64,000 nt of DNA from a virus (lineage: Duplodnaviria > Caudoviricetes): IMG/VR virus record IMGVR_UViG_3300031673_000001; one strand, 5' to 3'. The notes below the pieces were generated by a model that saw only the letters and a list, made by a program, of their open reading frames with translations, searched no databases and was not told the DNA's origin. Position numbers and translations under genes: made by a program. Shown in pieces: positions 7,441 to 24,992 of the stretch; position 1 is the first letter of the stretch, and the number at the start of each line of letters is the position of its first letter.

Positions 7441-7455
7441 TCTATATATATTAAT
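7441..7455 (+). promoter_or_regulatory. phage promoter-like motif TCTATATATATTAAT (copy 1 of 4)
   Basis: identical 15-mer also at 9097, 21680, 21848, always intergenic and same orientation. Confidence 0.6.
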
Positions 7456-7536
7456 AATTGAAAAGGAAGATTTATAACTATTTTTTTGATTATTCCGATA
7501 TCATATGAAAGGAGAACTAATTTTTGAATTTCAGTT

Positions 7537-9096: not shown

Positions 9097-9111
9097 TCTA
9101 TATATATTAAT
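9097..9111 (+). promoter_or_regulatory. promoter-like motif TCTATATATATTAAT (copy 2)
   Basis: exact match, 30 nt upstream of ORF 9141. Confidence 0.6.
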
Positions 9112-9140
9112 TACCGAATAGGCAAAACAACTTTAACAAT

Positions 9141-14839: not shown

Positions 14840-15285
14840 TGGATACAGAAACAAAAGTCACAATAAATTTTTTAGATAAAAATCCAATAGGTCTAAAAAA
14901 CTATTTGCAGCATAGATACGCAAAAGAAATAAATCAAATAATGCAAAGGTTAACCTCATATTTTAATGAGAGAGTTGATATTCATTATACATTTGAAGAT
15001 CAGGAACCTGTATGGTCTTCTGATTTAGATTTCTATTTAGCAGATAACAAATCTAAATATCCTATTGCAAATGCCGGTAATAGAAAATTACCTGTATGTT
15101 TTGTTATAAATCCTCCATGTTATAAAAAACCAAACTTAGATGAATGGATAATAAAAGATGAGGGAATATATTTAGTTGAACCTTTTAAATCTAAAAAACT
15201 AAAATGGTTATATAAGAAAAAAGTTAATACCATTTCATGGGAACGATTATTTAAGAAATCTTTGGAGATTAACCTATATGATTAA
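14839..15285 (+). CDS. hypothetical protein
   Basis: 148 aa ORF between duplicated rpoC end and rpoB start. Confidence 0.6.
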   Translation: MDTETKVTINFLDKNPIGLKNYLQHRYAKEINQIMQRLTSYFNERVDIHYTFEDQEPVWSSDLDFYLADNKSKYPIANAGNRKLPVCFVINPPCYKKPNLDEWIIKDEGIYLVEPFKSKKLKWLYKKKVNTISWERLFKKSLEINLYD

Positions 15286-18200
15286 ATTTCAATTACTAAC
15301 ACAATATACAAGAGTAGTAGATGGAGTTCGTTTCTTAAAAGAAAAAGATAAACCATTTGCATTATTTTATTTCTCCGAGAATTCAACTCTATATAATGAC
15401 TATCCAAAGATGAATCTAATGAGAATAGATTCTAAATATGTAGTCGTTCCGATAACAAAAATTCCTGTTTCACGATTAACAGGAGATCAAAGAAAGATTT
15501 ATAAATCATTTGGTTTAATTCCATTTCAATCAAATCAAGCATATCCTCCAAACTCAAATATTATATTTGATACAAGTCAGTATGTTTCATTAATAGATCA
15601 AACATATAAACCAACAACATATAGACAAAGAGCAGGATTTCTTCTTAATAACTTTTTTTACAAATCATTCAATTCCCTTCCTAATAATTATCAAAAGGTT
15701 CTAATTTACACTGTTGATATTAATAAACCAATAAATTCGTTTATAAATAGAAAAATATTTCCTATATTAAGAAACATGAAAGAAAATGAAATTTCATTTG
15801 ATCATATGCTTTTAGGATTGGTCGGTGAGACATCAACTAGATATAGACTATTAGTTAAAGATAGAAACTATAAATTTGCAAGAGTTACTCAATATATAAG
15901 AAAAATTAAAATGGTTGATTCAGATGAAGAGAAAGAACAAGATGTTGAATCAGCAACCAACTCATTTGATGAGAAAGATTCTAAAATTAAAACAGCAATT
16001 CAAAACTATCTAAATAAGAATGATAAAGATCTTGAGAAAGTTTCTAATGATGAACTTGATAAAACAGAAAAAGATAGATTGACAATAGCTTCTATCTTAT
16101 ATAAAGTTACAGGAAACTATTCAAAATCTCAAAGACTTGCAAAATCTATACCTGACTCAAACATCAAAACTGCAGTTCAAAAGATAAGTAATTTATATAG
16201 AGATGATTTATTAACAGGTGAAAAAGCTGTTAGTCTTAGTGAGTCGTATATTATTCAAGGAATGAATGTTGGTAAAGCAGTCCAAAATAAAACACCAGAG
16301 CATATATTTGATAAAAGAAGAATCGACTTTGAAACAAATTTGAAAAAAGATATGTCCAGTGCTTTTAAAGTTTTACAAAAAGGAAATGTTCCTATTAAAT
16401 TCAATTCAATTAAGGTTACTAGTAAAATATCAAGACCTGGAGAACTTAAAAAATCAGACGTTGCAATTGTATCTATAAGCGTAACAGATGCTGCAGGAAA
16501 TGAGCAAATAATTGAATTTGAAATTCCTGAGATTGATCCTAACTCTGGAACTTTTAGAGTAAATGGTCAACGTAAATGTTTAATAAATCAAATAGTGTTG
16601 ACCCCTATTAGCTTTCCTAAACCTTATGATTCTAAATTTGAGAGTTCATATTCAAAATTCCATATCTATAGTAGGAAGACCAAGAGATTGTCGTATCTAG
16701 AAGCATACATGGGTTCATTCCGCCTCCCATTGATGATCTTGTTATCATATAGTTTTGGATTTGAAGAAACAGTCAAAAGAGTAGGAATAAAATATAAAAT
16801 TGTTCAAGATAGACCTGAAAAAGATGTAGTTTTTACACAGGTTCCGTCCTCATATATGATATTTGAAGGTTTAGATACTGATTTAAAACGAGAAATGGTA
16901 ACATCATTTACTCATAGTAACATCAGTCAATATAAAAATGATAAAGAATTTTTATCAAAAGATTATTTCATAGATTTAATTATTCAAATGACTGGAAGGG
17001 TTGACTCAACATATTTGATAAATAATAATATTGAATACATTGTTGATCCAGTTTCAAAACAAGTTTTAATCAATCAATTATTACCATATAAACTAGAAGA
17101 TATTATGCACTATATGGCATCTAAAGCTGTTGAAGGTTATGTTCAAGAAAGAAATGATATTCAATATCAAAGAATTAGAAATTCAGAAATTCTAGTTCAT
17201 TTAGCACAAAAACAATTTCTTAAATCATATACTGAATATAAAGAACAATATCTATCAGGAAATAAAGATGCAAAATTTAATTTTCCACCTGGTTCTATAT
17301 TAGGTCAATTTACTAATTTAGAGATTGTTCAAAATATGGAATATGCAAATCCAGTTGAAGAAATGGCAACCATTACAAAAATTTCTCCAGTTGGAAAAAC
17401 TGTTGGTGGAGTTCCTGATAAGGAGGGATTAAATCTTGAAGCTCGAAATGTTCATAGATCATATTTTGGAAATATTGATCCAGTTGATACAGCAGAGGGT
17501 GGTAATATTGGTATAACCCAACAACTAACAGTTGATGCATATTTAACATCTTCAAGAGGACTTTTTGGAATTAAAGATTTAAAAAATGATGAAGGATCTG
17601 GAATACTATCAACGACTCTTTCAATGGTTCCATTTATTGAAAACAATGAAGGTGCCAGACTTATCATGGCAGGAAATCAAGGAAAACAAATGCTGCCCTT
17701 GAAAAATCCTGAACCTCCTATTGTTCAAACTGGATATGAGTCATTACTTTCCAATGTTCTATCTGATAGCTTTATTAAGAGATCTCCATGTGCTGGAAAA
17801 GTATCAAGTATTACAAATGACTTTATTGAAATAAGTTGTAAAGAAAATTCTAAAAAGAAAGTTGATATTACACCAGGTCAACTAAAATCTGGATCTGGAA
17901 AAAATACATTGAGCACATTTAGACCAACTGTGACTGTTGGTCAATCTGTTAAAGATAAGCAAGTAATTGCAGAAGGAGCTTGTATATCTGGAGGAACTAT
18001 ATCATTAGGAAGAAATCTTGCAACATGCTATATGCCATATGAAGGATATAATTTTGAAGATGGTCTTGTAATAAATGAAAGATTAGCAAATGATGATAAA
18101 TTAACTTCCTTACATGGAGTTGATATTGAAGTAAAAATTGATCATAAAGATAGAATTTTACATATTATAGAAATGGGAGCTTATACTAAAAAAGGTGAAC

Positions 18201-19342
18201 CTTTATTAATAAAAACAGCAGGAGATATTGAAGAACTACTGGGTTATCAAGAACAGGAAGAAGAAGGAGTTGATGTATATGAAGGTCAAATTGTTATAAA
18301 AAGTCCAGGAGGACAAGTTGTTGATATTGAAGTATTCTCTAATCTTGATATAGATGATTTTCCTTCTATTAAAAAGTTAGTTAAAAGAACTAACTTAAGA
18401 CATAAAAAACCTGATAAAGATAAATATACAGATAGATCAATTTCAATTAAAGGAATATTAATTGTATTTAAAGTTGAACAAGAATTGAAAATTAGAGTGG
18501 GTGATAAACTCTGTAACAGATATGGAAATAAAGGAATTATTTCATTAATTGAAAAAGATAATTTAATGCCAAGAACACCTTGGGGTGAAACAGTTGATAT
18601 AATTATGAATCCTCTTGGAGTTACAGGTCGAATGAATATGGGGCAAATATACGAATTATACTGTGGTCTTATTTCTAAAGAAGTAGCAAAGAGAATGATA
18701 AAGTTGACCAGACCACAAGGAATTGCATTGATGAAATCTGTAATAACAAAACTTGATAATACAAAAGATAAGAAAATTAGCACATCATTAATTGCTTCCT
18801 TAACTAAAATGAGTGATGGAAAATATAAAGAAATGTTAAGTCAAGTTGAAAAGAATAAATTTATACCAATAGTTATTCCTCCATTTCAATCTCCTAATCA
18901 CAAAAGTATAGCGGAAGTATTAAAATTATTAAAACTAAAAACAGGATATAAATTAAAACTTCCAAAGTATAATACATTGACGCAAAATGAAGTTCCTTTT
19001 GGTTATGAATATGTTTCTAAATTAGAACATCTCGCAGATGCTAAATTACATGCAAGATCAACAGGACCAACAGCAGGAAAAGGAGGACAACCAACTGCTG
19101 GAAAAAGAAAAGAGGGTGGTCAAAAAATGGGTGAAGGTGATACATGGGCGTTAGCTTCTTATAATTGTCCAACAGTATTATCTGAATTTTTTGGTCCTAT
19201 GTCTGATGATTTTGCATCTAAAAATGAAATGTTATCAGAAATTATACAAACTGGAACAACAGATTTTAAGCAAACAAAAATGTCTCCAACTAGAGATCTA
19301 TTAAGTGCATATTTTATTTCATTGATGTTAGGAGGTCAATAA
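15278..19342 (+). CDS. rpoB: DNA-directed RNA polymerase beta subunit (set 1) with about 330-aa N-terminal extension
   Basis: FRVNGQRK, IDPVDTAEG.NIG, EGYNFEDG, GDKLCNRYGNKG, RMNMGQ, KLEH, GGQKMGE. Confidence 0.95.
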   Translation: MIKFQLLTQYTRVVDGVRFLKEKDKPFALFYFSENSTLYNDYPKMNLMRIDSKYVVVPITKIPVSRLTGDQRKIYKSFGLIPFQSNQAYPPNSNIIFDTSQYVSLIDQTYKPTTYRQRAGFLLNNFFYKSFNSLPNNYQKVLIYTVDINKPINSFINRKIFPILRNMKENEISFDHMLLGLVGETSTRYRLLVKDRNYKFARVTQYIRKIKMVDSDEEKEQDVESATNSFDEKDSKIKTAIQNYLNKNDKDLEKVSNDELDKTEKDRLTIASILYKVTGNYSKSQRLAKSIPDSNIKTAVQKISNLYRDDLLTGEKAVSLSESYIIQGMNVGKAVQNKTPEHIFDKRRIDFETNLKKDMSSAFKVLQKGNVPIKFNSIKVTSKISRPGELKKSDVAIVSISVTDAAGNEQIIEFEIPEIDPNSGTFRVNGQRKCLINQIVLTPISFPKPYDSKFESSYSKFHIYSRKTKRLSYLEAYMGSFRLPLMILLSYSFGFEETVKRVGIKYKIVQDRPEKDVVFTQVPSSYMIFEGLDTDLKREMVTSFTHSNISQYKNDKEFLSKDYFIDLIIQMTGRVDSTYLINNNIEYIVDPVSKQVLINQLLPYKLEDIMHYMASKAVEGYVQERNDIQYQRIRNSEILVHLAQKQFLKSYTEYKEQYLSGNKDAKFNFPPGSILGQFTNLEIVQNMEYANPVEEMATITKISPVGKTVGGVPDKEGLNLEARNVHRSYFGNIDPVDTAEGGNIGITQQLTVDAYLTSSRGLFGIKDLKNDEGSGILSTTLSMVPFIENNEGARLIMAGNQGKQMLPLKNPEPPIVQTGYESLLSNVLSDSFIKRSPCAGKVSSITNDFIEISCKENSKKKVDITPGQLKSGSGKNTLSTFRPTVTVGQSVKDKQVIAEGACISGGTISLGRNLATCYMPYEGYNFEDGLVINERLANDDKLTSLHGVDIEVKIDHKDRILHIIEMGAYTKKGEPLLIKTAGDIEELLGYQEQEEEGVDVYEGQIVIKSPGGQVVDIEVFSNLDIDDFPSIKKLVKRTNLRHKKPDKDKYTDRSISIKGILIVFKVEQELKIRVGDKLCNRYGNKGIISLIEKDNLMPRTPWGETVDIIMNPLGVTGRMNMGQIYELYCGLISKEVAKRMIKLTRPQGIALMKSVITKLDNTKDKKISTSLIASLTKMSDGKYKEMLSQVEKNKFIPIVIPPFQSPNHKSIAEVLKLLKLKTGYKLKLPKYNTLTQNEVPFGYEYVSKLEHLADAKLHARSTGPTAGKGGQPTAGKRKEGGQKMGEGDTWALASYNCPTVLSEFFGPMSDDFASKNEMLSEIIQTGTTDFKQTKMSPTRDLLSAYFISLMLGGQ

Positions 19343-20205
19343 TGAACTTATGTGAATATGGTTGTGGACAAGAAGCAAAATATAAAACATCTAATAACAG
19401 ACAATGTTGCAGTCCTAAATTTAATTCTTGTCCAGGAATAAGAAAAAGAAATTCAGAAACAAATAAAATAAAACAGTCAGGAAAAAATAATCCAATGTAT
19501 GGAAGAGAACAAACTATAGAATCTAAACTAAAAAATAGTGAGTCAAATAAAAAAGTTTGGAAAGATAAATCATCAACTTTTAATAATCCTCAATATAGAA
19601 AGAAATTAAAAAAAGCTTTGATAGAAGCATCCAAAAAAAGAAAAAGAACTATTAAAATGCTAAAAGAAAAATATACGCTATTTTCAAAAATTGAAGAAAT
19701 GAGATATAATCCAGATAAACCAAAAGAAAAAGAAATTCAAGTTCATTGTAAAAATCATAATTGTTCAAATTCAAAAGAACAGGGAGGTTGGTTTACACCA
19801 ACAAATATTCAACTATATGAAAGAATAAGAAATGTAGAACACCACGGATTAGATAACTCTTATTACTATTGTTCTCAAAAATGTAAAAATGAATGTCCAT
19901 TATTTAATTTACATTCTGATCCATTTAAAAATAATGAAATACCATATACATCACAAGAGTATCAAACTTTTAGAAATTTCGTTCTTGAAAGAGATGATTA
20001 TAAATGTCAGTATTGTGAAGATTTAGCAACAGATGTTCACCACGAAAGATCACAAAAATTAGAACCATTTTTTGCGCTTGATCCTAATTTAGCTTGGAGT
20101 TGTTGTGAGAAATGTCATTATACAAAAGGTCATAAAGATGAATGTTCAACTGGAGCTTTAGCTAATAGAATTTGTACAGATGGAGTCAATAATGAATGCT
20201 CCTAA
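19342..20205 (+). CDS. HNH endonuclease with NUMOD3-like motif (free-standing homing endonuclease-like)
   Basis: GKNNPMYG..QT.ESK.K.S; VLERDDYKCQYC...DVHH......CEKCH. Confidence 0.75.
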   Translation: MNLCEYGCGQEAKYKTSNNRQCCSPKFNSCPGIRKRNSETNKIKQSGKNNPMYGREQTIESKLKNSESNKKVWKDKSSTFNNPQYRKKLKKALIEASKKRKRTIKMLKEKYTLFSKIEEMRYNPDKPKEKEIQVHCKNHNCSNSKEQGGWFTPTNIQLYERIRNVEHHGLDNSYYYCSQKCKNECPLFNLHSDPFKNNEIPYTSQEYQTFRNFVLERDDYKCQYCEDLATDVHHERSQKLEPFFALDPNLAWSCCEKCHYTKGHKDECSTGALANRICTDGVNNECS

Positions 20206-20707
20206 CTACAAACAAATTGACTTATTAAGAAAAGCAGGTTTAAGACCTGAGGTTGTTGCTTATATTATTAGAGATGGAGAATTTCTATTAACATATTCCA
20301 AAGAACATGATCTCTGGTTTGTTCCTCAAGGTGGAATTGATAATAAAGAAACACCTGAAAAAGCATTATATAGAGAGCTTGGAGAGGAACTAGGAATAAA
20401 ATTACAAAAAAGTTTATATGGAAAACCTGAGTTAATACATTTAGATAAAATAATGTTTACAAGTGGAATTGGAAGCAGAGACTTAAGAACTGACTCTGGA
20501 GAGTCTGTAGTTATGAAAGGTAAATACTATTTACATTATGTAGTTCAATCTACTATTCAAGAAATAGATGTTAGAGATACCGAGTTTGATAAATTAATTT
20601 GGGTAGGAAAAGAGAAACTATATATTGTTCCAAAAATTATAAATGTATCCACAAAGAAAAATCAATTTATAAATGTAATGCCTAAATTGGAAAAATATCT
20701 AACATAG
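20180..20707 (+). CDS. NUDIX hydrolase
   Basis: Nudix box GGIDNKETPEKALYRELGEELG; likely start ATG 20192. Confidence 0.85.
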   Translation: MESIMNAPNYKQIDLLRKAGLRPEVVAYIIRDGEFLLTYSKEHDLWFVPQGGIDNKETPEKALYRELGEELGIKLQKSLYGKPELIHLDKIMFTSGIGSRDLRTDSGESVVMKGKYYLHYVVQSTIQEIDVRDTEFDKLIWVGKEKLYIVPKIINVSTKKNQFINVMPKLEKYLT

Positions 20708-21403: not shown

Positions 21404-21661
21404 ATGGCAGAACCTATAATTAAAATTACGAAAGGTAATGTTGTTATAACAGGACCTAAATCTGAATTAGTTGAAGTATCCGAAACCCATGATGGTATAG
21501 CATTTAACTTCAAACGTGGTTTACAGGTGTATCAAGTTGAACAGTTCATGCCGACTCATATAAAACAACTTATCAAAAATACAACTGACTCATTTGAAGG
21601 AAATAATATTATTATAGATTTGGATAATGCTAGAAAACCTGTTATGGTTGATGCTACCTAA
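21404..21661 (+). CDS. hypothetical protein
   Basis: 85 aa, GAGG RBS, preceded by AGAACAAAA motif. Confidence 0.65.
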   Translation: MAEPIIKITKGNVVITGPKSELVEVSETHDGIAFNFKRGLQVYQVEQFMPTHIKQLIKNTTDSFEGNNIIIDLDNARKPVMVDAT

Positions 21662-21679
21662 TTCATTTTAAAGAAAATG

Positions 21680-21694
21680 TCTATATATATTAAT
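21680..21694 (+). promoter_or_regulatory. promoter-like motif TCTATATATATTAAT (copy 3)
   Basis: exact match upstream of ncRNA unit 1. Confidence 0.6.
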
Positions 21695-21729
21695 AAGTGA
21701 TAATATATGATTTGACTTATTTTTTTCAA

Positions 21730-21830
21730 TTTCTGGGAGGACTTGATATAATTTCAGAACTGTGTAATTACAGTGCCATTAAGGGGATTAAATTCCCTGA
21801 CATTAAATTACATCTTCTGCTTCCCAGAAA
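21730..21830 (+). ncRNA. stem-loop RNA unit 1 (Y-RNA-like array)
   Basis: TTTCTGGGAG/TTCCCAGAAA outer stem, GAC-TT loop, GATATAATTT/AAATTACATC inner stem, TTTCAGAAC, two apical hairpins. Confidence 0.7.
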
Positions 21831-21847
21831 ACATTTAAGAAAAAACA

Positions 21848-21862
21848 TCTATATATATTAAT
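21848..21862 (+). promoter_or_regulatory. promoter-like motif TCTATATATATTAAT (copy 4)
   Basis: exact match; downstream leader (..ATTTGACTT..) resembles that of copy 3. Confidence 0.6.
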
Positions 21863-21895
21863 AGGTGTAATAAAAATTTGACTTGTATTTTTAGT

Positions 21896-22004
21896 TTCCA
21901 AGAAGACTTTATGTAATTTCAGAGCTGATTGGTTCAGCATCTTACTTGAAATGAGACGTGAGGGTTCGATTCCCTATTTTAGTTACATCTATTACTTCTT
22001 GGAA
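21896..22004 (+). ncRNA. stem-loop RNA unit 2 with tRNA-like D, anticodon and T arms
   Basis: TTCCAAGAAG/CTTCTTGGAA, ATGTAATT/AGTTACAT; GCTGA-TTGGT-TCAGC, TCTTA-CTTGAAA-TGAGA, AGGG-TTCGATT-CCCT; no acceptor stem. Confidence 0.75.
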
Positions 22005-22015
22005 TCATTTTTATT

Positions 22016-22089
22016 TGGGGACAATAAAGAGAATTAACTTAATACAAGCGTTGGCCCGCCCGGATTAAATTAGTTCTCTGTCCCCACCA
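22016..22089 (+). ncRNA. stem-loop RNA unit 3, acceptor-like stem ending ACCA
   Basis: GGGGACA/TGTCCCC + A + CCA; inner AGAGAATTAA/TTAGTTCTCT. Confidence 0.6.
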
Positions 22090-22094
22090 ATTTT

Positions 22095-22177
22095 AGATGA
22101 GAAGACTTTATGTAGTTTCAGAAAAAATACAATTGGCGTATTCACTATCTACATATTTTTAATAATACTTCTCATCT
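22095..22177 (+). ncRNA. stem-loop RNA unit 4
   Basis: AGATGAGAAG/CTTCTCATCT, TATGTAG/CTACATA, TTTCAGA, AATAC-AATTGGC-GTATT. Confidence 0.7.
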
Positions 22178-22184
22178 TTACTTT

Positions 22185-22248
22185 TTCAAAAGACTTTATG
22201 TAATTTCAGAACCGATTGAGTTAATGACTTACATATGCTTCTTTTGAA
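22185..22248 (+). ncRNA. stem-loop RNA unit 5
   Basis: TTCAAAAG/CTTTTGAA, TATGTAA/TTACATA, TTTCAGAAC. Confidence 0.65.
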
Positions 22249-22254
22249 TACATC

Positions 22255-22330
22255 TTGTGAGGACACTGGGTATAACAATTTCAATATCATTCGGGGATCA
22301 TTGTTAATTATACTGATATTGTCCTCACAA
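22255..22330 (+). ncRNA. stem-loop RNA unit 6
   Basis: 11-bp TTGTGAGGACA/TGTCCTCACAA, GTATAA/TTATAC, AACAAT/ATTGTT, variant TTTCAAT. Confidence 0.6.
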
Positions 22331-22335
22331 TCTTT

Positions 22336-22394
22336 AATGGACTGAGTGTGATTTCAGAACTCGCAGAGAAGTTTCAATTACACTCAACTCCATT
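22336..22394 (+). ncRNA. stem-loop RNA unit 7
   Basis: AATGGA/TCCATT, TGAGTGTGATT/AATTACACTCA, TTTCAGAAC; followed by T run. Confidence 0.65.
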
Positions 22395-22490
22395 TTTTTG
22401 AAAGGAAAGTAATGAAATTCCTTAAACCAAAAATATTAGATATCATTGCTTTACGTTGGTTGTTAAAAACTAAAATAAAGGAGAAGCTAA

Positions 22491-24014
22491 ATGCCAATAG
22501 GGGAACTGGGAATCATTGATTCGGGAATTTTACAATTCGCCCCGAAGGGAGCTTATTATGAAGAAAAGGATGAACAATATCAAGCAGTTAAAAACATGTG
22601 GATGCAATTATTAGATTACGACAGAACCTTATTCTCTTTAGTAATGTTATTAAATGGCACTGGTTTCTCTAAAGGAGCTATGAGTCACATCCTATTATCA
22701 AATAGTATAAAGAATGTGAATAATCTACCAGCAATTACAGATGGATTACCAGAAGAATTTGAAAAGGAGATTATTAGATATAATCTCTATAAAGAGAGAA
22801 CACCAAGAGCATTGAAAAATCTATTAATGTTGGCAGGGGAAGAAGGACATAAAAAAATAAATAATTCAAAAACCAGAAAAATTATTTTGGAGTTCATCTT
22901 CAATCGAGATAATAAAAGTCTTGATTATCTTGCTGTAAATTATAAGATTAAACTTCAAAAACTAATTAAACATGCTCTTGGAAAGCAAGATCTCTATAAA
23001 ATTTTAAATGGAAGCAATAGTGATACTATATTTAGAAAAAATATTGGCAGATACAATAATCATTCTTTTCCAGTTGTATGCCATATATTCAATAAACCTA
23101 TTCCTTCCGGAACTTTCTTTCCAATGATTCAAAAGTATTATGAACTCAAAGATGCAGCAAAAATTGGAAATCTTGTTGAATTTAGAAAGCATATGAAAGG
23201 TTTTCCAGAAAGAACCGTTATGGGAATGAGAAATTTATATAAACTTGATATTCCCATATCTGATATAAAGAATGATACCCAGAAATCAGAGAAAGATAAA
23301 ATTCAAGGAATAGCAGCAGCAAAACGAGCTGGTGCAAAGAAAGTAGATATTAATTATAAAAAACAAGATATCTATGATCTATTCAAGCTTCTATATTTTA
23401 AACTCAACACTAAAGATGAAGAGGATGTTGATAAAATAATAGAAGCAATGGATTATGTTACAGATAATATGATCAAACTTGATATTGGAGAGTGTATAGT
23501 TATTATGGATGCCTCTCATTCAATGTTTGGAAGTGAAGAAAGACCAATGCATCCATTTTTAACTGGACTGTGCATTATTGCAAACCTCGACAATGTAAAA
23601 GATATAATATATGTTGGAGGACAAGCAATTAAATTTTCAACAATTAATCCAGGAGTTATAATACCAAAGAATTATACAGATCTCTGGAGAGCATTAATTA
23701 AAGCAGTCTCAAAAGGTGTTGAAAATATAGTTATTATTTCTGATGGTTATGAAAATTCTATTAAAGGGATGTTCGGGCACGTATATAAGCATTTGAAGGA
23801 GACAGGATATAATTTTAAATTAACACATCTCAATCCTGTATTTTCAGCTGGATCCTTAACAGGAACCTCAATAAGATTAACAGAGGATGTTAGACCATTT
23901 CCAGTTGGAGATTATAAGTTTCTTGAAACTGAAATAATCTTTTCTAAACTTATCGAAGATAAAGATATGGTTAGAAAATTATTAATATCAAAATATAAAA
24001 GTCTGATTCAATGA
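22491..24014 (+). CDS. Ro60/TROVE-like protein with C-terminal vWA (MIDAS) domain
   Basis: 507 aa; helical basic N-terminal two-thirds; IMDASHSM (DxSxS), YTDL, IISDGYEN; the vWA call is firm, the TROVE call is inferred from size, architecture and adjacent RNAs. Confidence 0.6.
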   Translation: MPIGELGIIDSGILQFAPKGAYYEEKDEQYQAVKNMWMQLLDYDRTLFSLVMLLNGTGFSKGAMSHILLSNSIKNVNNLPAITDGLPEEFEKEIIRYNLYKERTPRALKNLLMLAGEEGHKKINNSKTRKIILEFIFNRDNKSLDYLAVNYKIKLQKLIKHALGKQDLYKILNGSNSDTIFRKNIGRYNNHSFPVVCHIFNKPIPSGTFFPMIQKYYELKDAAKIGNLVEFRKHMKGFPERTVMGMRNLYKLDIPISDIKNDTQKSEKDKIQGIAAAKRAGAKKVDINYKKQDIYDLFKLLYFKLNTKDEEDVDKIIEAMDYVTDNMIKLDIGECIVIMDASHSMFGSEERPMHPFLTGLCIIANLDNVKDIIYVGGQAIKFSTINPGVIIPKNYTDLWRALIKAVSKGVENIVIISDGYENSIKGMFGHVYKHLKETGYNFKLTHLNPVFSAGSLTGTSIRLTEDVRPFPVGDYKFLETEIIFSKLIEDKDMVRKLLISKYKSLIQ

Positions 24015-24023
24015 GGAGAACTT

Positions 24024-24992
24024 ATGTCAATTTTTAGAATATTAAAATTTTCAGATGAAGATATTGGAGCTGGAAGTATTCAGGGTGTAGATGAAATGAC
24101 AGTGGTGCCTCTCATTGGTGAAAATCTAGGTAATGTAGCAGAACCACTTTCATTAAAATTCAAACGAACGGATAGTTATGGTTCCATGGTATATGAAAAT
24201 ACAGATAAGGAACTATCCGGAATTATTCCTACAAACATAATGGTTAGAGGATTTAATGCTCAAGATCATGCAATGGCAGGTTCAGGAATAATTACAGCAA
24301 ATAAAACAACAAAATTCACTAATGCATGCTGTATTGAATCAGGTCAGGGAGGATATCTACAAGATAAAGGTAATGATTATGATATCTTACCAATTGAGCT
24401 TCGTAAAAATCTCTTACCATTAAAAATGAGAGACAAGAATAGATATGATAAATTATGGCCAGACATTTCAAAATGGTTAGCTGGCACAGGAGTTTCTAAA
24501 TCAATAATGCAGTCACATTTAAGATATTTCTATGATAATCCTCAAATAAAGGAATCTCTTGAAGAGTTTTCTGCTTCCTTTGAACCAGTATCTAATCAGA
24601 TTGGAGCTGTCATATTATTTAAAGACAAAGTTGTTGGAATAGAAATTATGCCAAGTGTTCAACATTGGGAAAGTTATTGGAAGTTATTAATTCGAGGATG
24701 TTACGGCGCCGAGTTATTGAGACTTAAAAAACTTGGCAAAATTAATTCATCTCTTAAACTACCAAAATTTAAGAAGGGTGATAAGGTGGAACATCTAGAA
24801 CTAATTGTTGATAATTTTTTACATGATATTAGAAAAGATATTTTACAAATAATAGATAATATTAAAATAAAAAATGCCTCAATATTAAATAAAATTGAGA
24901 ATTTTGAAACTATATTAATAGAAACAGATTCAGGTGGTGGGGATCTTATAACTCAAGATAAAAAACCTATATATCTTTCACTGGTTCTCTAA
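24024..24992 (+). CDS. ARPP-1 (DUF6569)-like protein
   Basis: MTVVPL, IP....VRG..AQDH, ACCIE..Q, FE.V.NQIGAVI......GIE..P pattern recalled for this family. Confidence 0.55.
   Translation: MSIFRILKFSDEDIGAGSIQGVDEMTVVPLIGENLGNVAEPLSLKFKRTDSYGSMVYENTDKELSGIIPTNIMVRGFNAQDHAMAGSGIITANKTTKFTNACCIESGQGGYLQDKGNDYDILPIELRKNLLPLKMRDKNRYDKLWPDISKWLAGTGVSKSIMQSHLRYFYDNPQIKESLEEFSASFEPVSNQIGAVILFKDKVVGIEIMPSVQHWESYWKLLIRGCYGAELLRLKKLGKINSSLKLPKFKKGDKVEHLELIVDNFLHDIRKDILQIIDNIKIKNASILNKIENFETILIETDSGGGDLITQDKKPIYLSLVL

What the first reader, a model, noticed from the sequence alone, without database searches (positions are those of the whole stretch)
21896..22004. tRNA body without acceptor stem mounted on the conserved handle
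Seen: D-like arm GCTGA-TTGGT-TCAGC, anticodon arm TCTTA-CTTGAAA-TGAGA (anticodon UGA), a short variable region and T arm AGGG-TTCGATT-CCCT. Positions that should form the acceptor stem do not pair and there is no CCA. Knowledge: tRNA-Ser(UGA) has a long variable arm, and YrlA mimics tRNA through D/T/acceptor elements rather than an anticodon arm. Units 1 and 4 retain degenerate D- or T-like hairpins. Inference: a non-chargeable anticodon-loop decoy against host anticodon nucleases or a sponge for tRNA-binding defence proteins.
Basis: partly seen in the sequence, partly recalled or inferred. Interest (0 to 1): 0.75.

Follow-up and report, generated by a model that had tools for sequence, protein, structure and literature searches.

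The report
Acceptor-less tRNA mimic, phage Y RNA
A giant phage encodes a small RNA that looks like a transfer RNA with its amino-acid-accepting stem replaced by a conserved two-helix handle. It sits in an array of handle RNAs just upstream of a very diverged Ro60 gene, so it is most likely a new variant of the tRNA-mimicking Y RNAs that partner Ro60.

Summary
Window 21898-22002 (+) folds into an 8-bp outer stem, an internal loop, an 8-bp inner stem, then a D arm, an anticodon arm (7-nt loop, UGA) and a T arm. It has no acceptor stem and no CCA. ARAGORN makes no call. The Rfam tRNA model matches only positions 9-63, at 25 bits against a 29-bit cut-off.

It is not a decayed tRNA. A covariance model finds the same architecture in 18 of 20 related phage loci, always in the gap upstream of the same gene. 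In those copies 97% of cells pair and 23 of 29 pairs show compensatory changes.

That gene (22491-24014) has no Pfam hit, but its model matches only Ro60/TROVE structures at full length (Z 13-15). An ARPP-1 gene follows it.

All five handle units of the window lie here. Ordinary tRNA genes in related phages lack the handle. One relative carries a YrlA-type permuted tRNA-like domain on the same handle.

Best reading: a Y-RNA-class partner of a phage Ro60-like protein. The handle would be the docking site and the tRNA-like body the effector module. This scan had already noted the Ro60-like/ARPP/RNA module in this genome.

The parts
21832..21867 (+). Promoter-like repeat ahead of unit 2. Its core, TCTATATATATTAATA, lies at 21848-21863. 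A second copy at 21664-21699 precedes unit 1.
   Evidence: Direct repeat D3, 83% identity. The core occurs four times in the window, each time intergenic on the + strand: 7441, 9097, 21680 and 21848. The same motif opens the RNA gap in L069, L070 and L071.
21898..22002 (+). Unit 2: the handle-mounted tRNA-like RNA, which is the finding itself.
   Evidence: R1 covariance model 110.3 bits, E 7e-22. RNAfold gives outer stem, inner stem and three arms. Rfam tRNA model 25 bits over positions 9-63.
21898..21923 (+). 5' half of the handle: outer stem 21898-21905, loop ACTTT 21906-21910, inner stem 21911-21918, single-stranded TCAGA 21919-21923.
   Evidence: Over 87 distinct units the G-ACU is 94-99% conserved and the UUUCAG 82-99%. 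Both stems covary.
21924..21975 (+). tRNA-like body: D arm 21924-21938, anticodon arm 21940-21956 (anticodon TGA at 21947-21949), variable region 21957-21960, T arm 21961-21975.
   Evidence: The GG of the D loop and the UUCRANU of the T loop are kept in all copies aligned.
21976..22002 (+). 3' half of the handle: linker 21976-21980, inner stem 21981-21988, loop CTATTA 21989-21994, outer stem 21995-22002.
   Evidence: 3' UACA and A-CUU conserved.
21733..21827 (+). Unit 1: the same handle with a different apical domain.
   Evidence: R1 39.6 bits; fold z -3.9.
22097..22175 (+). Unit 3: the same handle with a small apical domain.
   Evidence: R1 31.1 bits; fold.
22185..22248 (+). Unit 4: the same handle, with a remnant of the 5' half of the D arm.
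   Evidence: R1 40.9 bits; repeat D1, 82% identity to unit 2.
22333..22399 (+). Unit 5: the handle variant GGACTGAGTGTGATTTCAGAAC, followed by a run of seven T (22393-22399).
   Evidence: R1 23.7 bits; fold z -4.6. The same last unit plus T run is seen in L069 and L070. Reading the T run as a terminator is inference; the simple scan did not call it.
22491..24014 (+). Ro60/TROVE-fold gene, 507 aa: a helical-repeat ring plus a vWA domain with the MIDAS motif D340-x-S342-x-S344.
   Evidence: No Pfam, PHROG, NCBIfam or PDB sequence match. AF2 model pLDDT 82, pTM 0.78. The top full-length structural matches are all Ro60/Rsr/TROVE (Foldseek E 1.6e-5; VIA Z 13.0-15.2 over about 400-417 residues). D340, S342 and S344 are invariant in 40 homologues.
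24024..24992 (+). ARPP-1 domain gene, always directly downstream of the Ro60-like gene.
   Evidence: Pfam PF20208, E 2.5e-20. The pairing holds in every fetched locus with gene calls, including a 27%-identical relative.

Best explanation
Unit 2 is a Y-RNA-class noncoding RNA of a jumbo phage. Its 5' and 3' ends pair into a sequence-conserved two-helix handle. The rest folds into a tRNA-shaped body with a D/T elbow and a canonical anticodon stem-loop, but with no acceptor stem and no CCA. It therefore cannot be aminoacylated.

Proposed mechanism, marked as shown or inferred:
1. Inferred: it is transcribed from the phage promoter motif about 35 nt upstream, as part of a multi-unit RNA array that ends at the T run after unit 5.
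2. Inferred: the units are cut apart in the short spacers.
3. Inferred from conserved adjacency and from the Y RNA precedent: the handle docks on the very diverged Ro60-fold ring protein encoded immediately downstream.
4. Inferred: the tRNA-like body projects as the effector module. It would bring a tRNA-recognising protein to the Ro60 ring or gate the ring's RNA-binding cavity. That protein could be a host enzyme or nuclease, or the ARPP-1 partner. This mirrors how Y RNAs tether Ro60 to PNPase in Deinococcus and in Thermus phage phiLo.

Shown here: the structure, its conservation and covariation, its exclusive location next to the Ro60-fold/ARPP-1 gene pair, and the absence of tRNA acceptor features.
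For: Structure. RNAalifold on 8 copies returns the outer stem, inner stem, D, anticodon and T arms, and 18 of 29 pairs show compensatory changes. On 21 model-aligned copies 97.2% of cells pair and 23 of 29 pairs change on both sides. The covariation score is 0.689, against 0.16 for shuffles and 0.08-0.13 for slid controls.

Distribution. R1 scores at least 69 bits in 18 of 20 distinct loci, always in the 700-840-nt gap upstream of the 507-aa gene homologue. Synteny is conserved.

Specificity. All five handle units of the 83-kb record lie here. Of 46 pattern-hit loci elsewhere, only the one on a Ro60-homologue contig matches R1. The 26-29 ordinary tRNA genes of related phages lie in separate arrays, and those inspected have no handle.

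Partner gene. The fold search gives only Ro60/Rsr/TROVE at full length, and the MIDAS residues are invariant.

Link to known Y RNAs. One relative (L091 1419-1566) carries the YrlA-type order of T arm, closed acceptor-like hairpin and D arm on the same handle. Y RNAs lie next to Ro60 genes in bacteria and phages and mimic tRNA (PMC4201824). Phage phiLo Ro60 binds two upstream Y-like RNAs and host PNPase (PMC12135203).

Depth. A 27%-identical Ro60-like plus ARPP-1 pair in huge phage LR756500.1 also has a handle-mounted tRNA upstream.
Against: No binding or expression data exist; no RNA sequencing run holding this DNA was listed. The handle lacks the GNCGAA/CGAA motif that marks the Ro60-binding strand of known bacterial and phage Y RNAs (direct reading). 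Docking on the Ro60-like protein therefore rests on adjacency and analogy. The binder could instead be ARPP-1 or the conserved 85-aa protein encoded upstream. A canonical 7-nt anticodon loop with U33 is kept in nearly all copies. A pure elbow-mimic scaffold does not obviously need this, which hints at a function that reads the anticodon loop.
Confidence: 0.65

Rival explanations
1. One reading: the RNA is a non-chargeable anticodon-loop decoy or sponge. It would soak up host anticodon nucleases or other tRNA-binding defence proteins, either on its own or presented on the Ro60-like platform.
For: The anticodon arm is under selection for canonical geometry: 5 bp with covariation in all 5 pairs, a 7-nt loop in 20 of 21 copies, U33 in 20 of 21, and a purine at 37 in 19 of 20. 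Meanwhile the triplet itself changes between close relatives, for example UGA here and UGU in the phage with an 80%-identical Ro60-like protein, and GAU, UAU, ACA, AUU, AUA, UCG, GCU and GCC elsewhere. Lacking an acceptor stem, it cannot enter translation, as expected of a decoy. Related arrays carry handle-mounted full tRNAs with anticodons unusual for decoders (A34 in AUG, AUC, AAU and AUA; UUA).
Against: No nuclease, defence gene or host is identified. Anticodon turnover can equally be neutral drift in a loop whose shape alone matters. The changes follow phylogeny (UGU and GAU clusters) rather than showing obvious diversifying patterns. The decoy idea does not by itself explain the conserved handle or the Ro60-like/ARPP-1 linkage.
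Confidence: 0.15
2. The handle is a processing or stability cassette, a double-stranded cleavage or protection signal that defines each unit of a polycistronic RNA. On this view its position next to the Ro60-like gene is incidental and the tRNA-like unit acts independently of that protein.
For: Units are packed 5-11 nt apart and need some excision mechanism. The same handle flanks unrelated apical domains, and in relatives it flanks complete tRNAs with an encoded CCA.
Against: The sequence conservation lies in loop and single-stranded positions (G-ACU, UUUCAG), which is more typical of a specific protein site than of a generic duplex signal. The handle is absent from the inspected ordinary tRNA genes of related phages. 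It is found only beside the Ro60-like gene, even at 27% protein identity.
Confidence: 0.1
3. It is a precursor from which a working, chargeable tRNA-Ser(UGA) is released.
For: The D, anticodon and T arms are tRNA-like. In relatives other units on the same handle have 6-7 bp acceptor stems and an encoded CCA, and ARAGORN and Rfam call them tRNAs.
Against: The unit has no acceptor stem in register, no CCA, a 4-bp T stem and a 4-nt variable region instead of the long arm of bacterial tRNA-Ser. ARAGORN makes no call and the Rfam score is below threshold. The acceptor-less state is conserved in 19 aligned copies.
Confidence: 0.02
4. It is a decaying pseudogene of a handle-mounted tRNA, kept by chance.
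For: Unit 4 of the window does look like a deletion remnant of such a unit.
Against: All five helices keep pairing through compensatory changes at protein distances down to about 50% identity, and the tertiary-contact bases of the D and T loops are invariant.
Confidence: 0.03

Closest known systems
Deinococcus radiodurans Yrn1 (Y RNA of Rsr)
   Same: The 5' and 3' ends pair into the protein-binding stem, which occupies the place of the tRNA acceptor stem. The body has D-like features, a 5-bp anticodon-like arm and a T arm, in the normal tRNA order. It is encoded next to the Ro60 gene (PMC4201824).
   Different: Yrn1 has a 6-nt anticodon-like loop, no clear D arm and no variable region, and it keeps the metazoan-type Ro60-binding helix. 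The phage RNA has a complete D arm, a canonical 7-nt loop with U33 and a different handle sequence. No sequence homology was detected, and no Rfam Y RNA family matched.
YrlA RNAs of Salmonella, Mycobacterium and several phages
   Same: A tRNA-mimicking effector module on a terminal stem, encoded in one to several copies beside a Ro60 orthologue and not chargeable as such. One relative of this locus (L091 unit 3) has the YrlA order T arm, closed hairpin, D arm on the same handle.
   Different: YrlA is circularly permuted relative to tRNA. The Ro60 stem takes the place of the anticodon stem, the acceptor-like stem is a closed loop and there is no anticodon loop. Unit 2 is the converse: an anticodon loop is present and the acceptor stem is replaced. 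The GNCGAA motif is absent.
Thermus phage phiLo Ro60 with Yrl1 and Yrl2
   Same: A phage-encoded Ro60-fold protein with Y-like RNAs directly upstream. phiLo Ro60 is among the best structural matches of the 507-aa protein (9kop and 9l5y, Z 14-15).
   Different: The phiLo Yrls are stem-bulge-stem RNAs with a CGAA motif, and the parts of the paper read here describe no tRNA-like cloverleaf. No ARPP-1 partner appears in the parts read. Protein identity is about 14%.
Canonical tRNA and phage tRNA genes
   Same: A D arm with GG, a 5-bp anticodon stem with a 7-nt loop (U33, A37), and a T loop UUCGAUU.
   Different: No acceptor stem, no discriminator or CCA, a 4-bp T stem, and 5-nt linkers to an extended handle. 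It scores below the thresholds of ARAGORN and the Rfam tRNA model.

Membership tests
Canonical tRNA | A 7-bp acceptor stem formed by the 5' and 3' ends | tested here: not met
   In tRNA register only 3 of 7 positions pair (direct reading). The Rfam alignment covers model positions 9-63 only. The nearest helix is the 8-bp inner handle stem, separated from the body by 5-nt linkers.
Canonical tRNA | A discriminator base plus 3' CCA, encoded or addable at a free 3' end | tested here: not met
   No CCA follows the T arm; the sequence runs on into the handle. Whether processing and CCA addition occur in vivo cannot be tested here.
Canonical tRNA | D arm, anticodon arm (5 bp plus a 7-nt loop with U33) and a T arm with a UUCRANU loop | tested here: met
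   The T stem has 4 bp rather than 5 in most acceptor-less copies.
Canonical tRNA | Called by tRNA gene finders or reaching the Rfam RF00005 gathering score | tested here: not met
   ARAGORN finds 0 genes. RF00005 gives 25 bits against a gathering score of 29.
Y RNA (Ro60-associated ncRNA) | The 5' and 3' ends pair into a long stem interrupted by a conserved internal loop or bulge | tested here: met
   Outer and inner helices with a conserved asymmetric loop. There is covariation in 7 of 8 outer and 4 of 7 inner pairs.
Y RNA (Ro60-associated ncRNA) | Encoded adjacent to a Ro60/TROVE orthologue | tested here: met
   The array ends about 90 nt upstream of a gene whose model matches only Ro60 structures at full length. 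The adjacency holds in all loci fetched.
Y RNA (Ro60-associated ncRNA) | The conserved Ro60-binding sequence (GNCGAAN0-1G / CGAA on the 5' strand, or the metazoan bulged helix) | tested here: not met
   The handle consensus is G-ACU ... UGUAAUUUCAG with 3' UACA ... A-CUU and contains no CGAA. The motif definition comes from PMC4201824 and PMC12135203.
Y RNA (Ro60-associated ncRNA) | Physical binding to Ro60 | not testable with these tools
   This needs RIP, EMSA or a structure. No RNA-protein complex predictor was on hand.
YrlA subfamily | The permuted order T arm, closed acceptor-like stem-loop, D arm, with the Ro60 stem at the anticodon-stem position | tested here: not met
   Unit 2 has the normal tRNA order D, anticodon, T. 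A YrlA-type order is seen only in relative L091 unit 3.
Ro60/TROVE protein (neighbouring gene) | A helical-repeat ring plus a C-terminal vWA domain with a MIDAS motif | tested here: met
   In the AF2 model residues 1-330 are helical and 335-507 are alpha/beta. Ro60 chains take the top ranks over about 400-417 aligned residues, at Z 13-15.2. DxSxS at 340-344 is invariant.
Ro60/TROVE protein (neighbouring gene) | Sequence match to the Pfam TROVE domain | tested here: not met
   No Pfam, NCBIfam or PHROG family and no PDB sequence hit, even with a 40-sequence profile. Membership therefore rests on the fold alone.

The most novel reading that the evidence does not exclude
The Ro60-like ring, ARPP-1 and the handle RNAs form a phage counter-defence particle. 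It would display non-chargeable tRNA bodies, each with a real anticodon loop and a fast-changing anticodon, as bait for host tRNA-cleaving or tRNA-sensing immune proteins. The acceptor-less unit would be a dedicated bait that cannot leak into translation.
Probability: 0.15. Interest if true: 0.85.

Novelty: new variant of a known kind. Interest (0 to 1): 0.6.

Why it matters
Y RNAs that mimic tRNA are known, but what their tRNA-like domains bind is still open. Known YrlAs lack the anticodon loop.

This lineage offers the converse design: the anticodon arm is kept and the acceptor is replaced. It comes with a sequence-conserved handle, a Ro60 relative too diverged for sequence models, and an obligatory ARPP-1 partner.

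There are dozens of natural variants. They include full tRNAs with an encoded CCA on the same handle and one YrlA-type permuted unit. This gives a ready comparative series for asking which part of tRNA shape a Ro60 particle uses. It also allows a test of whether phages use such particles against tRNA-directed host defences.

Tried and rejected
- Rfam at gathering thresholds on the whole window gave no family. At permissive thresholds only the partial tRNA hit was credible.
- blastn of the locus against cultured and deposited phages gave no match. tblastn of the Ro60-like protein found only one uncultured 462-kb phage.
- The single-protein scan of viral contigs failed. The profile scan worked.
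- An exact-pattern scan for the 5' handle in viral contigs returned 63 stretches at about chance level. Only one was real by the covariance model.
- The genome-contig scan gave one 23%-identical hit in a Microscillaceae MAG, with no handle RNA or tRNA in the DNA held.
- Sequencing-run search: no RNA holder was listed, so expression and RNA ends could not be examined, and read laying was not used.
- The simple promoter/terminator scan gave promoter counts at chance level and did not call the unit-5 hairpin plus T run. Its single terminator call is just the D arm.
- I considered a kink-turn and a bulge-helix-bulge reading of the handle loop and dropped both. The required G-A pairs or 3-nt bulges are not there (direct reading).
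- I did not run complex prediction on the Ro60-like and ARPP-1 proteins, because the claim here concerns the RNA.
- My first regex for handle units returned nothing because the pattern was faulty. It was replaced by a stem-pairing scan.

Full report
CONTEXT. The window is part of an 83-kb IMG/VR virus record estimated at 27% complete, which implies a jumbo phage. GC content is about 29% and almost all genes lie on the + strand. The finding lies in an 830-nt stretch without long ORFs (21662-22490). Upstream are an RNA polymerase beta-like gene (15278-19342), an HNH endonuclease-like ORF, a NUDIX ORF, a 197-aa ORF and an 85-aa ORF. Downstream are a 507-aa ORF (22491-24014) and an ARPP-1 domain ORF (24024-24992).

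THE OBSERVATION. RNAfold of 21896-22006 gives an 8-10 bp terminal stem, an internal loop, an 8-bp second stem and three hairpins that correspond to D, anticodon and T arms (-30.1 kcal/mol, z -3.3). The Rfam tRNA model aligns to model positions 9-63 only. That is everything except the acceptor stem, at 25 bits against a gathering score of 29. ARAGORN calls no tRNA anywhere in the window, and no Rfam family reaches its threshold. In tRNA register the flanking bases pair at only 3 of 7 positions and no CCA follows.

THE ARRAY. The conserved handle is real. The 5' motif occurs five times in the window, against 0.03 expected by chance, and nowhere else in the 83-kb record. Each copy has a matching 3' strand, so there are five closed units: 21733-21827, 21898-22002, 22097-22175, 22185-22248 and 22333-22397. 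Two further hairpins of another type sit between them.

CONSERVATION. The 507-aa protein has at least 249 metagenomic relatives, none with a Pfam domain, many on contigs of 100-300 kb. I fetched loci through identical-protein look-ups and a profile scan of viral contigs.
- In every locus with gene calls the order is the same: RNA polymerase beta, a protein of about 200 aa, a protein of about 85 aa, a gap of 700-840 nt, the 507-aa homologue, then ARPP-1.
- The gaps contain the same kind of handle units, and their outer stems differ in sequence but stay complementary.
- Eight units with a tRNA-like body aligned cleanly.
- A covariance model built from them (R1) found 4-7 units per locus, all on the + strand in the gap.
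- Full-architecture matches of at least 69 bits occur in 18 of 20 distinct loci.
- On the 21 best copies 97.2% of cells pair and 23 of 29 pairs change on both sides. The covariation score is 0.689, against 0.16 in shuffles and 0.08-0.13 when partners are slid. That alignment was fitted to the model, which favours the structure, but the independent MAFFT/RNAalifold result agrees.

DETAILS OF THE BODY. The anticodon loop has 7 nt in 20 of 21 copies, U33 in 20 of 21 and a purine at 37 in 19 of 20. The GG of the D loop and the UUCRANU of the T loop are kept throughout. The T stem is 4 bp in most acceptor-less copies. The anticodon itself is not conserved: GAU, UGU, UGA, UAU, ACA, AUU, AUA, UCG, GCU, GCC and others. 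The RNA is therefore a maintained class, not a decaying tRNA, and it does not mimic tRNA-Ser specifically.

THE NEIGHBOUR. The 507-aa protein matches nothing by sequence, whether Pfam, PHROGs, NCBIfam or PDB, and a 40-sequence profile does no better. An AlphaFold2 model built on 40 homologues (pLDDT 82, pTM 0.78) shows a helical-repeat region followed by an alpha/beta domain. Foldseek's twelve best PDB matches are all Ro60/Rsr/TROVE chains over the full length. In the VIA second look the ten best entries are Ro60 proteins: phiLo phage, Xenopus, human and Deinococcus, at Z 13.0-15.2 with 398-417 residues aligned. vWA-only matches come next at Z 11.8 or less. A DxSxS motif at 340-344 is invariant. 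The gene is thus a Ro60-fold protein too diverged for sequence models. ARPP-1 is a predicted enzyme domain of unknown activity, described from ADP-ribose-related conflict systems (PMC9503650).

IS THE HANDLE TIED TO THIS GENE OR TO tRNAs IN GENERAL?
- Related phage records of 223 and 248 kb carry 26 and 29 matches to the tRNA model. Apart from the units at the Ro60-like locus, these lie in separate tRNA arrays.
- R1 finds clear handle units only at the Ro60-like locus.
- The few weak R1 hits inside tRNA arrays are ordinary tRNAs without the G-ACU ... UUUCAG flanks.
- Of 46 loci picked up by an exact 5'-handle pattern across 2.9 million viral contigs, only one matched R1, and it lies on a contig with a Ro60-like homologue.
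- A 27%-identical Ro60-like plus ARPP-1 pair in the 462-kb uncultured phage LR756500.1 has one handle-mounted tRNA about 1.45 kb upstream (R1 51 bits).
- Across 87 distinct units the most conserved bases are in the loop and single-stranded parts of the handle: G-ACU at 94-99%, the U-U-C of UUUCAG at 94-99%, and a 3' UACA and A-CUU. That pattern fits a sequence-specific protein site.

RELATION TO KNOWN Y RNAs. Chen et al. (PMC4201824) found Y RNAs beside Ro60 genes in more than 250 bacteria and phages.
- YrlA has the order T arm, closed acceptor-like hairpin, D arm, with the Ro60 stem in place of the anticodon stem.
- Deinococcus Yrn1 has the normal tRNA order, with an anticodon-like arm and the Ro60 stem in place of the acceptor stem.
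- Phage phiLo Ro60 binds two Y-like RNAs encoded upstream and forms a complex with host PNPase (PMC12135203).
Unit 2 shares the Yrn1 orientation but has a complete D arm and a canonical anticodon loop. One relative, L091 1419-1566, carries a YrlA-type permuted domain on the same handle, which ties the handle RNAs to that family by architecture. The known Ro60-binding motif (GNCGAA/CGAA) is absent, so I do not file the RNA as a YrlA or Yrn1 member. I call it a new variant of the Y RNA kind.

RELATIVES WITH FULL tRNAs. Most related arrays also hold a second kind of unit. This is a complete tRNA with a 6-7 bp acceptor stem, often with an encoded CCA, mounted on the same handle. ARAGORN and Rfam call it a tRNA, at 45-69 bits. 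Its anticodons are often unusual for bacterial decoders: AUG, AUC, AAU, AUA, and UUA twice. The window has none of these. The acceptor-less form may be derived from such units, but the direction of change was not tested.

MECHANISM. Shown: the structure, the conservation, the location and the lack of acceptor features. Inferred: transcription from the promoter-like motif that precedes units 1 and 2 and two other intergenic sites, excision of the units, docking of the handle on the Ro60-like ring, and use of the tRNA-like body to recruit or occupy a tRNA-recognising protein. I put 0.65 on this reading. A pure processing cassette (0.10), a chargeable tRNA precursor (0.02) and a pseudogene (0.03) fit the data less well.

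LIMITS. There are no expression data, no binding test and no host assignment. The covariation counts come from related sequences, so they overstate independence. The Ro60 assignment rests on a predicted fold.

Noticed in passing
window 22017-22089: A 73-nt hairpin directly after unit 2 closes with a G-rich 7-bp stem followed by A and CCA, a tRNA-type acceptor end on a rod-like interior. Hairpins with GGGGNNN/NNNCCCC plus ACCA recur in related arrays (L069 2322-2386, L082 946-1009, L089 504-567 and 775-831). Overall, 7-bp stems followed by NCCA number 35, against a mean of 18 in shuffles. An acceptor-end mimic thus sits next to an acceptor-less body.
   Followed up: partly
window 22255-22330: A second long hairpin of the non-handle type (11-bp perfect closing stem TTGTGAGGACA/TGTCCTCACAA) lies between units 4 and 5. 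Its fold z-score is -4.2.
   Followed up: no
L071 2748-2862; L075 2118-2244; L078 2132-2264; L082 1274-1404; L087 540-665; L090 1265-1386: Related arrays carry complete tRNAs on the same handle, with 6-7 bp acceptor stems, most of them with an encoded CCA followed by A-rich spacer. The anticodons called by ARAGORN are odd for decoders: atg, atc, aat, ata, tta (twice), plus ttg, tgg, gat, ttt and gtg.
   Followed up: partly
L091 1419-1566: In a 40%-identical relative, one unit on the same handle has the YrlA-type permuted order: T arm, GC-rich closed hairpin, D arm, then another hairpin.
   Followed up: partly
window 7441-7456, 9097-9112, 21680-21695, 21848-21863: A candidate phage promoter core, TCTATATATATTAATA, preceded by an ATTTAAA-like element, occurs four times. 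Every copy is intergenic on the + strand, and two of them precede RNA units 1 and 2.
   Followed up: partly
window 19342-20707: An HNH endonuclease-like ORF and a NUDIX ORF sit between the RNA polymerase beta gene and the 197-aa ORF. Several relatives (L070, L073, L075, L078) lack one or both, so this spot is variable.
   Followed up: no
L097 (LR756500.1 101548-107819): A 462-kb uncultured phage has a 27%-identical Ro60-like gene followed by an ARPP-1/ARPP-2 gene. Upstream lie a CYTH-domain ORF and a handle-mounted tRNA-Leu(taa).
   Followed up: partly
window 21404-21661: An 85-aa ORF with no family match is conserved (83-87 aa) directly upstream of the RNA array in every locus with gene calls. 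It is an alternative candidate for a handle-binding protein.
   Followed up: no
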